Below, piece by piece: positions 23,556-54,364 of a DNA stretch of 64,000 nt; the first letter of the stretch is position 1; every line of letters begins with the position of its first letter. Both the position numbers and the translations under genes were made by a program. The stretch comes from Squalus acanthias (taxonomy: Eukaryota). Under the pieces are notes generated by a model. The model had not been told where the DNA came from. It ran no database searches and was given only the letters and a program-made list of their open reading frames with translations. The stretch spans positions 22,198,001 to 22,262,000 of the forward strand of contig CM059432.1 in NCBI GenBank assembly GCA_030390025.1. Direction: 5' to 3'.

Positions 23556-24984
23556 GAGCATAATCAAAATATAAGATGGGAGTCAAAAATTAACAAATCT
23601 CATGCCAGACTAGAAATTAAAGGAAATTATTCCCCTCCTCCCCCCAGAGAGCAGTGGATTTGGAGAAAAACTCCTGTCAAAAGCAGTTAACACAGTGCCG
23701 GTTAACTCCTTCAAAAGTAAACACCTGGTGAAGAGCTCCCGCTAGTTGGAGTAGATGGCCACGATTTTGCCAGCGCTCAGAGGGCGGGTTTGGAGGCGGG
23801 TCAGAGATTAAAGTAGTTTTGATTGACGGCAGGTACCGCACCTGCCGTCAACCCACCTCCACACAACCTTCCCAAGTGTTGGATCCCCGATTTGCGAATG
23901 GACCCGACACCTGGCGGCGGGAAAAGGATTAAAGGCAATTAACTGCCTATTACCAGCTACTTGTCAGCAGTTTTCAGGGTCTTTTTCGATTTTCCAGCTT
24001 CTGGGTCGGGTTTCACGACATCCGGACAAAACGCCAGGTAAGTTTGGCGTGTTGTGAGTCTGGTCTGATGTTTCTGAAAAGATGACAGCTGCAGAAGTGG
24101 TGTCAAGAATGCCATGTTGCACATGGTGAGTTTCAAAGCAAAGAAAATGTTGGTTACTGCATTTATAATACATATACAGATTTCTTTAGCTTACAAGTTT
24201 TTAAATCCAACTGTATGTCCAGTGCCACCTCATTGGGAGAACCTCTCCCACCATTGACAGATTGCTTCTGTCATCTCACCTGCAGCTGCCATCTGTTCCA
24301 GCAACATCGGAGCCAATGAAACAATAAGACCTTGGTCCTCTGAATCCTTCCACAATCATCCCCAACATCACCAATCTCATCACCAACCTTCGCCGCCATC
24401 ACCTGATGGTGCCCTGGACACAGGGCATCAGCTATTGACAAAATTGCTGGCTGGGAGGCCAACAATGGCATCACCATGGCCAGACTTTCTTCACTTGATC
24501 CTGTTAACCCTGGCTGCCACATGATGTGCCAGGTTGACACCATCCCACACCAGCACCGTGAAGCATCCCTTTAATGTCCAAGCCATTCCATGCACACTCA
24601 TCACTATAGCGGGGGGGGGAGTTATGACTGAACAATCATTGGAACTCAGTAAGACACTTCTCAATGTGCGCTCAGATCTGTCCAATAAGGGGCACTTTTT
24701 GAAAAAGAGATTTCACTGTATGACAACACATTACTAGAAACTTCACATGGACATTGGCTAAACCTCTCAAGTGCCCACCCTTGTGTGTTGTTAGTTGGTA
24801 TGCTTGCAGTAGAATGAGGGTGAGTGTGAGGGGTGGCTAGTGAGAGGGGGAAGTGATAAAGTAGATGGAGAGGGTTGGGTGGAGGTGCAAGGTAAGTTGG
24901 TGTCCTGGGGAGGTCTCTTCTGCCCTTGGAAGGGAAGAGAAACTCCCTGCATACTGTGACTCCCTCCATAAGCATTTGGAGGGA

Positions 24985-25208
24985 CAAAAATGAGAAGTCG
25001 CACAACACCAGGTTATAGTCCAACAGTTTTATTTAAAATTACGAGCTTTCGGAGCTCCGCTCCTTCTTCAGGTACACTGTACCTGTACCTAAAGAAGGAG
25101 CGGAGCTCCAAAAGCTCGTAATTTTAAATAAAACTGTTGGACTATAACCTGGTGTTGTGCGACTTCTCATTTTTGTCCACCCCAGTCCAACACCGGCATC
25201 TCCGCATA
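24985..25208 (+). mobile_element. Fold-back Penelope-type pLTR retroposon with two inverted hammerhead motifs
   Basis: ~95-bp inverted arms plus a 30-bp tail, with an 8-bp TSD tggaggga (24977-24984, 25209-25216). It interrupts the Harbinger Myb remnant. Confidence 0.88.
25040..25074 (-). ncRNA. Minimal hammerhead ribozyme (intact core)
   Basis: The minus strand reads tac-CTGAAGA-a-ggagc/gga/gctcc-GAAA-gc-TC-gta. Confidence 0.8.
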
Positions 25209-52787: not shown

Positions 52788-52896
52788 TATGGTTTTCTTA
52801 ATGGTCAGGTAGTGAATATGTTAACAATGTTAACACTTAAATAAAAATGAGAAGTCGCACAACACCAGGTTATAGTCCAACAGATTTATTTAAAAT

Positions 52897-52932
52897 TACA
52901 AGCTTTCGGAGCTGTCGCCCCTTCCTCAGGTA
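52897..52932 (-). ncRNA. Minimal hammerhead ribozyme, minus-strand copy
   Basis: Reverse complement of 52958-52993. Confidence 0.8.
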
Positions 52933-52957
52933 GAGTTACTGTTACTCACAGTAACTC

Positions 52958-52993
52958 TACCTGAGGAAGGGGCGACAGCTCCGAAAGCTTGTA
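52958..52993 (+). ncRNA. Minimal hammerhead ribozyme, plus-strand copy
   Basis: tac-CTGAGGA-a-ggggc/gaca/gctcc-GAAA-gc-TT-gta; stem III is the palindrome AAGCTT. Confidence 0.8.
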
Positions 52994-54364
52994 ATTTTAA
53001 ATAAATCTGTTGGACTATAACCTGGTGTTGTGCGACTTCTCATTTTTGTCCACCCCAGTCCAACGCCGGCATCTCCACATCATGAACACTTAAATAGATA
53101 TGGTGTAACAAAAAAACAAAATACTGCAGATGCCAGAAATCTTCAACGAGCGACCCTGACCCTTGCTTACACTGATTGCATGAAAAAGGAAAATGTTTCA
53201 ATCCCCAGCATTAACATCCCTCAATTTTACGAGTACAAATATTCACACACACAAAAAACACAGAAGTGCAAAATAATTTATCTCTTACAATAAGTGTACT
53301 GATATCTCTACTTTTAACAGTTATTAACATAACTGTCTGAATATGAGTGATAGGTTGAGCACCAACCAATGGCCAAATTAAGAGTTTTGTGCCAGGGGTC
53401 TTTAGCTATAGTATAAAGGCTTTAAAAAGAGAGATGGTCAGGAGCGCAAAATGATTACTGCAGTCTGCTGCTGCTGAAACAAAGGAGGATTAGGACGATG
53501 ATGACACTAGAAGGTGGTAATAATATTGTTGTATCTGGATAAACAATAAAAATATCTGTGACTTATCTGTGATTAAATGCTTAACATCACTGTTTAAATT
53601 ACACCATCAATCTAAATCATTGAACAATTAACTAGTAAAGGCCATACACCCCTCCATTCAAATGAGAGGGACCAGATCAATGTTCAGCTATTAAATTGAT
53701 ATCAACTAAAACACAAAAAGAAAAAGACAATTCGATAGCTGGCAGTTCCTCTACTGTTCGGCTACTGTGTAAAAACTTTAATAGATTAGATTTTGATGAT
53801 CCCTATGATATCATAATTTTTTTTTTAGTTTTCAAACGTCCTCTTCTAAAGGCAGTGACTCATTCTGCCTTTATGGTTCCCTGGGGATTGACTACCCTCT
53901 GCAGCACATCCAGGTGGCCATTCTTTACGAATGAATCGACACTGTGACGGCACGTGATTTGACCCAGTCCTGTCCTTAACCAACATCACCGATCCCAACT
54001 TTCCAGCAAGTTCACCAGTGATCAAGAGAAGAAACCGTCTGAGATTAATGATTAGAATACAGCACTTTATCACATAGGAATGATAGGGCATAGTAGGAAA
54101 ATATTAAAATAACACCTGAATTCGGAAAAGTTACTGAAACGCAGCCAAAAGCTGGAAGCTTGAAGCAGTGAAACTTAATGAAAGAATTTCCACACAGCAC
54201 TTCAGAATGGTGACACCTGATTAGAAATAATTGTTCCCTTTCTACAGGCCAAACCTCCTTGGAATGCATGTTTTACTAAGTTTCCCTGACCTAAACTGCT
54301 GATGGTAGCAAAACTGAACTGCCCTGCAGCAGCATTTTGGCACCATGTCCCTTTTTTGGGTCTG

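What the first reader, a model, noticed from the sequence alone, without database searches (positions are those of the whole stretch)
52832..53096. Non-coding fold-back retroposon with an intact hammerhead ribozyme on each strand
Seen: a 242-bp insert with a 12-bp TSD, made of a mismatch-free 100-bp inverted repeat (5-nt loop) and a 37-bp tail. Each arm has a complete minimal hammerhead (stem I tac:gta, CUGAGGA, 5-bp stem II, GAAA, palindromic AAGCUU). Established: Penelope-like elements carry minimal, dimer-acting type I hammerheads in their pseudo-LTRs and often form inverted pLTRs. Inference: a transcript from either strand contains one ribozyme plus its full antisense, so the unit could switch between self-cleavage and a long dsRNA hairpin. 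It may propagate as a retrozyme-like non-autonomous element. The perfect arms suggest a recent insertion.
Basis: partly seen in the sequence, partly recalled or inferred. Interest (0 to 1): 0.78.

Follow-up and report, generated by a model that had tools for sequence, protein, structure and literature searches.

The report
Mirror-image stub of Penelope retrotransposon
This small DNA hairpin is two short, head-to-head copies of the tail end of a known type of jumping gene (a Penelope-like element) in a shark-like genome, likely made at the moment of insertion rather than copied as a unit, and the place where it folds back likely marks where that element's RNA starts.

Summary
In detail: perfect 100-bp arms, 12-bp target duplication, 37-bp tail, and a minimal hammerhead on each strand. 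The retrozyme reading fails. Each arm is the 3' end of an autonomous Penelope-like element (892-aa RT + GIY-YIG ORF, intact in 9 of 21 junction loci). The tail ends at that ORF's ATG. About 5,600 short fold-backs exist, their apices differ between loci, and this exact apex occurs once. Inverted copy plus tail, and opposite-strand hammerhead pairs, are in print, and the scan noted such stubs before in this and other genomes.

The copies add three things. (1) In this subfamily 18 of 100 arms end within 0-4 nt of a predicted initiator 30 nt behind a TATA box, 15 times background; the window's apex sits there. (2) The two arm ends are coupled (24 of 37 near-equal, 5.8 expected). (3) Both outer junctions show microhomology to the RNA. 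Best reading: both nicked target strands prime cDNA on sense RNA, the cDNAs run off its 5' end and are end-joined. One versus two RNAs, ribozyme activity and the start site are untested. Known kind; modest mechanistic interest.

The parts
52832..52843 (.). Target-site duplication, left copy (12 bp); its last A is shared with the left arm (1-nt microhomology)
   Evidence: modal TSD length in the family is 12 (44 of 98)
52843..52942 (-). Inverted arm: 3' end of the Penelope-like element without the tail; its 5' end is exactly the predicted initiator A
52897..52932 (-). Minimal type I hammerhead motif, minus strand (predicted cut after 52900); activity untested
   Evidence: mirror of the + copy
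52943..52947 (.). Junction: TA not from the parent at this position + CTC parent sequence; this exact junction occurs once in the genome
52945..53047 (+). Direct arm: 3' end of the Penelope-like element, starting 3 nt upstream of the predicted initiator A (52948)
   Evidence: 140 of 140 nt identical to a long copy in L137; TATA-initiator spacing
52958..52993 (+). Minimal type I hammerhead motif (predicted cut after 52990, H17 = U); activity untested
   Evidence: PMC4209133
53048..53084 (+). 37-bp PLE 'tail' = the sequence just before the parent ORF; ends in the ORF's ATG (53082-53084)
53085..53096 (.). Target-site duplication, right copy; its first A matches the next base of the parent RNA

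Best explanation
The insert is two 5'-truncated 3' ends of an autonomous, Neptune-type Penelope-like retrotransposon joined head to head inside one 12-bp target duplication, likely made in a single insertion in which both cut target strands primed reverse transcription on the element's sense RNA and both copies ran off its predicted start site. Shown: the parent element, the layout, the uniqueness of the junction, the pile-up of ends at the predicted initiator, coupled arm ends, and microhomology at both outer junctions. Inferred steps: (1) A tandem copy is transcribed from a TATA/initiator promoter in the upstream pseudo-LTR. (2) The GIY-YIG endonuclease makes a staggered cut 12-14 bp apart. 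(3) One 3' OH primes at the ORF start codon (tail arm) and the other about 37 nt further upstream (tail-less arm), like the two initiation sites seen in vitro for the anole element. (4) When priming occurs at the first pLTR-ORF junction of the RNA, only about 140 nt of template remain, so both cDNAs stop at the RNA 5' end, which fixes the apex here. (5) The two cDNA 3' ends are joined by microhomology or short insertions and filled in. The hammerheads are passengers from the parent's 5' leader, conserved because the parent needs them; the stub is a dead end. Confidence: about 0.93 for 'insertion by-product of the PLE', about 0.55 for the priming and run-off detail.
For: Parent: 892-aa ORF with RT, DKG, a C-x4-C-xx-C linker and a GIY-YIG/CCHH end. 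It is intact in 9 of 21 pLTR-ORF junction loci, and 157 such junctions exist. Nearest named homologues are shark proteins at 80-94% identity. Counts: 6,031 exact tails and 5,614 short fold-backs. TATA-like box 28-30 nt before a TCA(C/T)(T/A) motif in several subfamilies. Of the first 100 of 567 arms of the window's subfamily, 18 end 0-4 nt upstream of that A and 1 in the next 5 nt; rate 0.040/nt versus 0.0027/nt background, Poisson p 2e-15. A by-eye tally of the 100 rows gave 57 ends at -4..0 and 3 at -9..-5. Arm ends are coupled: Spearman 0.77, 24 of 37 near-equal versus 5.8 by permutation. The tail-less arm is longer in 21 pairs and the tail arm in 9, which a simple fold-back of the tail cDNA cannot give. 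Microhomology of 2 nt or more occurs at 54 of 96 left and 49 of 96 right junctions versus 10% and 5% in shuffles. 8 of 41 short fold-backs have arms differing at 2 or more stem II sites; those inspected sit inside one TSD.
Against: The start site is predicted from motifs only; the RNA runs were contigs of guessed RNA and gave no start positions. No clear cap-G signature: 22 of 63 by eye, and too few single-arm copies. The test of whether ends track the initiator across subfamilies was inconclusive because assignments were unreliable. The parent has short inverted repeats around this position, which could itself favour joining there. 82 of 100 arms run past the predicted start, and long arms are also coupled (9 of 17 versus 3.8, p 0.005; Spearman 0.40, not significant); run-off at a fixed start does not explain that. 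Arms of young copies almost always share subfamily alleles (22 substitutions in 4,235 bp), as a fold-back or one RNA copied twice would predict. The mixed-arm loci are mostly old and could be later gene conversion. D. virilis Penelope has a TATA-less promoter (PMC2377424 passages).
Confidence: 0.7

Rival explanations
1. Same parent, but the mirror arm arises by fold-back: one cDNA (or an antisense template, as proposed in PMC3846280) self-primes and is copied into a hairpin, later trimmed at the apex.
For: It explains directly why arm ends are coupled at all lengths and why arms share alleles. Some apices are perfect palindromes with no spacer.
Against: The tail-less arm is longer than the tail arm in 21 of 37 pairs, so trimming must be invoked often. 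It does not explain why the mirror arm stops about 37 nt short of the tail end, whereas two initiation sites do (PMC11167929). 8 of 41 loci have arms differing at 2 or more stem II sites. The pile-up is at the predicted sense-strand start, which fits a sense template.
Confidence: 0.2
2. The apex cluster and symmetry come from local DNA structure or later editing of longer palindromes (hairpin-guided joining, central deletions), not from the RNA 5' end.
For: The parent has short inverted repeats spanning the cluster. Junctions downstream also favour palindromic words such as GGAGCTCC. Spacer size grows with arm length.
Against: The rate of ends drops about 16-fold immediately upstream of the predicted initiator, inside the inverted repeat. 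Several arms ending there abut non-element sequence rather than a mirror arm. TSDs are intact in 98 of 129 pairs.
Confidence: 0.08
3. One reading: a self-propagating, retrozyme-like non-autonomous unit that switches between self-cleavage and a dsRNA hairpin.
For: At least 40 near-full-length look-alikes and 91 loci with a similar apex.
Against: The junction is unique. 135 of 139 inner sequences are distinct, and the four repeated ones are simple junctions. The ribozymes are in opposite strands, not tandem, so no unit-length circle can form. The stub has no TATA box. No one-strand A-to-G scar appears in 184 pairs. The three copies with identical flanks (L008, L014, L015) are a duplicated segment.
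Confidence: 0.02

Closest known systems
Insertion units of endonuclease-positive Penelope-like elements with an inverted 5'-truncated copy and one-sided 30-40 bp tail (Craig et al., 10.1101/2021.04.23.441226 / PMC8557442, passages read; Arkhipova et al. 2013, PMC3846280, parts 1-4 of 5 read)
   Same: Head-to-head inverted pLTR, tail on one side, TSD around the whole unit, TATA plus initiator in the pLTR (noted for Adineta Pen2a), palindromes at the inverted junction.
   Different: Here both copies are cut down to about 100-140 bp with no ORF, and thousands of such stubs exist. The 2013 paper proposes self-priming on an antisense template; these data lean to sense-RNA priming from both target strands.
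Minimal PLE hammerheads (Cervera and De la Pena 2014, PMC4209133, parts 1-2 of 4 read)
   Same: Extra nucleotide after A9, G10.1-C11.1, no stable helix III, palindromic 15.2-16.2, dimer model. That paper already reports dual motifs 100-700 bp apart on opposite strands, attributed to truncated PLEs.
   Different: Shorter helix I (3 bp) and helix II (5 bp) than the Schistosoma examples; H17 is U here and C in sister subfamilies.
Poseidon element of Anolis carolinensis in vitro (Frangieh et al. 2024, PMC11167929, parts 1-2 of 4 read)
   Same: Two internal RT start sites flanking the tail, cleavage and extension of both target strands, AT-rich targets (TSDs here 73% AT), predicted dimer.
   Different: Here the element is Neptune-type by its linker, and the tail ends at the ATG instead of about 115 nt inside the ORF. 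Both junctions here show 1-4 nt homology between target and RNA, whereas that paper reports initiation at a non-homologous site. It did not address how inverted arms form.
L1 twin priming and the postulated 'dual priming' (Meyer et al. 2010, PMC2837659, passages read)
   Same: Both target nicks prime cDNA, giving inverted pieces inside one TSD with an end-joined internal junction.
   Different: In L1 twin priming the two pieces do not overlap and the event is a side path; here they cover the same stretch, and an inverted second copy is seen in 41 of 70 tail-anchored loci.
Metazoan non-LTR retrozymes (PMC7229834, passages; 10.64898/2026.07.22.740005, parts 1-3 of 5 read)
   Same: Non-coding, type I hammerhead, PLE pLTR ancestry.
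   Different: Retrozymes are same-strand tandem repeats that yield circular RNAs; this is an inverted pair with a one-off junction.

Membership tests
EN+ Penelope-like element (truncated copy) | Derived from an element with a single ORF encoding RT plus C-terminal GIY-YIG endonuclease with CCHH motif | tested here: met
   892-aa ORF directly after the tail; RVT_1 hit above its cutoff; motifs read; many homologues carry PF01541. Pfam did not score the GIY-YIG domain on this ORF itself.
EN+ Penelope-like element (truncated copy) | Tandem pLTR-ORF arrangement in source copies | tested here: met
   157 exact pLTR-ORF junctions; unit about 3.0 kb between tails
EN+ Penelope-like element (truncated copy) | Inverted 5'-truncated copy, 30-40 bp one-sided tail, TSD | tested here: met
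EN+ Penelope-like element (truncated copy) | Minimal hammerhead motif in the pLTR | tested here: met
   Invariant core; UA/CG covariation in stem I (18 vs 9 haplotypes); 0 of 500 shuffles reach the score. The rows are related, so this is few independent events.
Neptune clade | CX2-5CxxC linker between RT and endonuclease (shared with Nematis, absent in Penelope/Poseidon) | tested here: met
   CHGNLCKTC in the ORF; definition
Neptune clade | RT phylogeny groups with Neptune rather than Nematis | not tested
   No labelled reference PLE proteins were held; no tree built
Non-LTR retrozyme | Hammerheads in same-strand tandem repeat units | tested here: not met
   One motif per strand, head to head; definition
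Non-LTR retrozyme | A fixed unit copied to new loci | tested here: not met
Non-LTR retrozyme | Expressed as circular RNA through self-cleavage | not testable with these tools
   Only contigs of guessed RNA were served
Active hammerhead ribozyme | Site-specific self-cleavage | not testable with these tools
   No excess of genomic 5' ends at the cut site (weight 3.9 at the site, similar to several other positions, 81 arms); needs an assay

The most novel reading that the evidence does not exclude
Thousands of these stubs record the Penelope insertion mechanism: dual priming is the normal path. A dimeric RT-endonuclease primes cDNA from both target strands at the two tail boundaries, sometimes on RNAs from two different source elements, and 'strong-stop' run-off at the capped start site, only 7-13 nt before the hammerhead core, produces the commonest short product. 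The ribozyme would then sit where cleavage removes the cap-bearing first ~43 nt of the element's mRNA.
Probability: 0.4. Interest if true: 0.6.

Novelty: new member of a known kind. Interest (0 to 1): 0.33.

Why it matters
The locus itself is an ordinary dead-end stub. The family matters because how Penelope-like elements make their inverted ends is stated as open in PMC3846280, PMC8557442 and PMC11167929. This genome has intact ORFs and thousands of young products, which give sharp, testable predictions: a start site, two priming windows, coupled arm ends and occasional mixed arms. Thousands of near-perfect 50-500 bp palindromes may also matter as dsRNA sources or fragile sites in shark genomes (inference, not tested).

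Tried and rejected
Rfam scan: no hammerhead family reported; the miRNA matches reflect the hairpin only. The first genome search suggested a fixed family, but it ranks by similarity to the query (40 of 1,179 candidates scored); position-ordered samples removed that impression. Cap-derived G at the apex: not supported (22 of 63 by eye; 12 single-arm rows, 4 with a TSD). Excess of 5' ends at the hammerhead cut site as a footprint of cleavage in vivo: not seen. Tracking of ends with the initiator across subfamilies: inconclusive; one search used some fold-back copies as references by mistake, and one search had 12 unassigned and many misassigned arms. ADAR scars: none among 184 pairs. RNA evidence: 21 runs listed, 4 laid, all contigs of guessed RNA, no start or end table. 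One search projected arms on one reference and produced indel artefacts, so direct arm-to-arm alignments replace it. No structure or complex prediction was run. Literature searches found no paper in the held library on Neptune/Penelope in sharks (0 hits), and none of the papers read describes apex clustering at the start site. Subscription papers such as Evgen'ev and Arkhipova 2005 and Dalle Nogare 2002 were seen only as citations, and no supplements were read; they may already describe this.

Full report
Observation. The window holds a 100-bp perfect inverted repeat (52843-52942 / 52948-53047), a 37-bp tail and a 12-bp target duplication. The unit folds at -191 kcal/mol, z -31. Each arm carries a minimal type I hammerhead with the predicted cut after 52990. 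Rfam lists no hammerhead match, but across 28 recurring haplotypes from this genome the core is invariant, all 224 stem cells pair, and the outer stem I pair covaries UA/CG. These rows are related, so the covariation reflects few events. Two copies co-fold through the AAGCUU palindrome, as the dimer model of PMC4209133 expects.

What it is part of. A search with the whole insert returned 40 near-full-length copies, which looked like a fixed family, but that list is ranked by similarity. An exact search for the tail found 6,031 sites. In the first 70 loci by position, the tail is the 3' end of a longer element whose upstream part encodes a GIY-YIG-type C-terminus. At 157 sites the tail runs straight into an ORF. 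In 9 of 21 such loci examined the ORF is an intact 892 aa, with RT, the DKG motif, a C-x4-C-xx-C linker and a GIY-YIG/CCHH end (definitions). That makes it a Neptune-type (or Nematis-type) Penelope-like element; no tree was built. The nearest named proteins are from sharks. The tail ends at the ORF's ATG. The window's direct arm matches a long copy of its subfamily at 140 of 140 nt. The surrounding ORFs with Pfam hits are RT or endonuclease fragments (7 of 16 scanned).

Is the hairpin a propagating unit? No. Short fold-backs number 5,614 with exact anchors. In position-ordered samples the apex falls anywhere from about 15 to more than 800 nt from the tail. Among 139 short fold-backs there are 135 different inner sequences (this set includes the similarity-selected copies, and de-duplication was imperfect). 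The window's own junction occurs once in 3.7 Gb. 91 loci have a similar apex, and the 50 listed carry varied microhomologies or short insertions. TSDs are 12-14 bp in 85 of 98 loci with an exact TSD, of 129 examined. The layout is described in print (PMC8557442 preprint passages; PMC3846280 parts 1-4), and opposite-strand hammerhead pairs from truncated PLEs are noted in PMC4209133.

Why the apex recurs here. In long copies a TATA-like box lies 28-30 nt upstream of a TCA(C/T)(T/A) motif in several subfamilies. I noted this as a candidate start site before testing it. The window's arms begin at that A and 3 nt before it. Among the first 100 of 567 arms of this subfamily that reach the A, 18 end within 0-4 nt upstream of it and 1 in the next 5 nt: 0.040 ends per nt against 0.0027, p 2e-15 (the 5-nt window was chosen after the by-eye tally, which gave 57 ends at -4..0 and 3 at -9..-5). 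Without any reference, about half of 96 short fold-backs have their apex between the hammerhead core and this motif. The simplest reading is run-off at the RNA 5' end. Against it: the start is only predicted, no cap-G signal was found, the cross-subfamily shift test was inconclusive, local inverted repeats could favour joining there, and 82 of 100 arms extend further, which requires read-through RNA.

How the two arms form. The tail arm ends at or near the ATG and the other arm about 37 nt earlier, matching the two RT initiation sites that flank the tail in vitro (PMC11167929). Both outer junctions share 2 or more nt with the RNA in 54 and 49 of 96 loci, against 10% and 5% for shuffled TSDs. 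In 37 inverted pairs from the tail-anchored sample the arm ends are coupled (Spearman 0.77; 24 near-equal versus 5.8 by permutation). The tail-less arm is the longer in 21 and the tail arm in 9. Arms of young long pairs differ at only 22 of 4,235 bp, so they usually come from one source. Yet 8 of 41 short fold-backs differ at 2 or more stem II positions (58-75% expected under random pairing), several between recurring haplotypes inside one TSD. Most of these are older copies and some differences are confined to stem II, so gene conversion is not excluded. Together this favours priming from both target strands on sense RNA with end-joining in the middle, like L1 twin or dual priming (PMC2837659 passages), over the antisense self-priming proposed in PMC3846280. 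It does not settle one RNA versus two, and coupling of long arms is not explained by a fixed start site.

The ribozyme. It is conserved because it belongs to the parent's 5' leader. In the stub, a read-through transcript would form the long hairpin and bury it, and the stub has lost the TATA box. No excess of genomic ends at the cut site and no one-strand A-to-G scars in 184 pairs were found. RNA data were uninformative. PLE hammerheads are reported as weak, dimer- or protein-dependent, and dispensable for insertion in vitro (PMC4209133, PMC11167929).

Earlier notes of this scan report the same kind of stub in at least 23 genomes and in this one; they agree but are not independent evidence. 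A look-up for start-site run-off returned none.

Verdict. Real feature, known kind: a truncated, inverted Penelope-like insertion, not a retrozyme. Interest 0.33, carried by the mechanistic signal in the copy population.

Noticed in passing
window 24982-25207: A second fold-back stub of an older subfamily of the same element (arms 24982-25074 and 25075-25207, about 90% identical to the finding); its + strand hammerhead core is mutated.
   Followed up: partly
L004 and L007 (around 1500-1770): Window-type stubs inserted into the TATA-like tract of an older copy of the same element's pLTR, in 2 of the 30 top hits; fits insertion into its own AT-rich terminus.
   Followed up: no
L168, L176, L177, L180, L186, L187, L191: Fold-backs whose two arms carry different stem II haplotypes inside one TSD; in six of these seven, one arm has the same GGAGCAGCGCTCC version. 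Two RNA templates, template switching or gene conversion.
   Followed up: partly
L008, L014, L015: Three copies of one stub with the same flanks and shared private changes inside a tandem array on contig C27: passive duplication.
   Followed up: no
L081: A fold-back with the tail on both arms and a 13-bp TSD; rare (3 of 129 pairs had a long second end).
   Followed up: no
parent pLTR, e.g. L137 6438-6481: The predicted start site lies only 7-13 nt before the hammerhead core in the subfamilies seen, so cleavage would remove about 43 nt including the cap.
   Followed up: partly
stem II loop across subfamilies (alignment A1): The stem II loop is hypervariable (3-8 nt) while the core and the sequence towards the tail are nearly invariant; one variant has a palindromic GATCGATA loop.
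   Followed up: no
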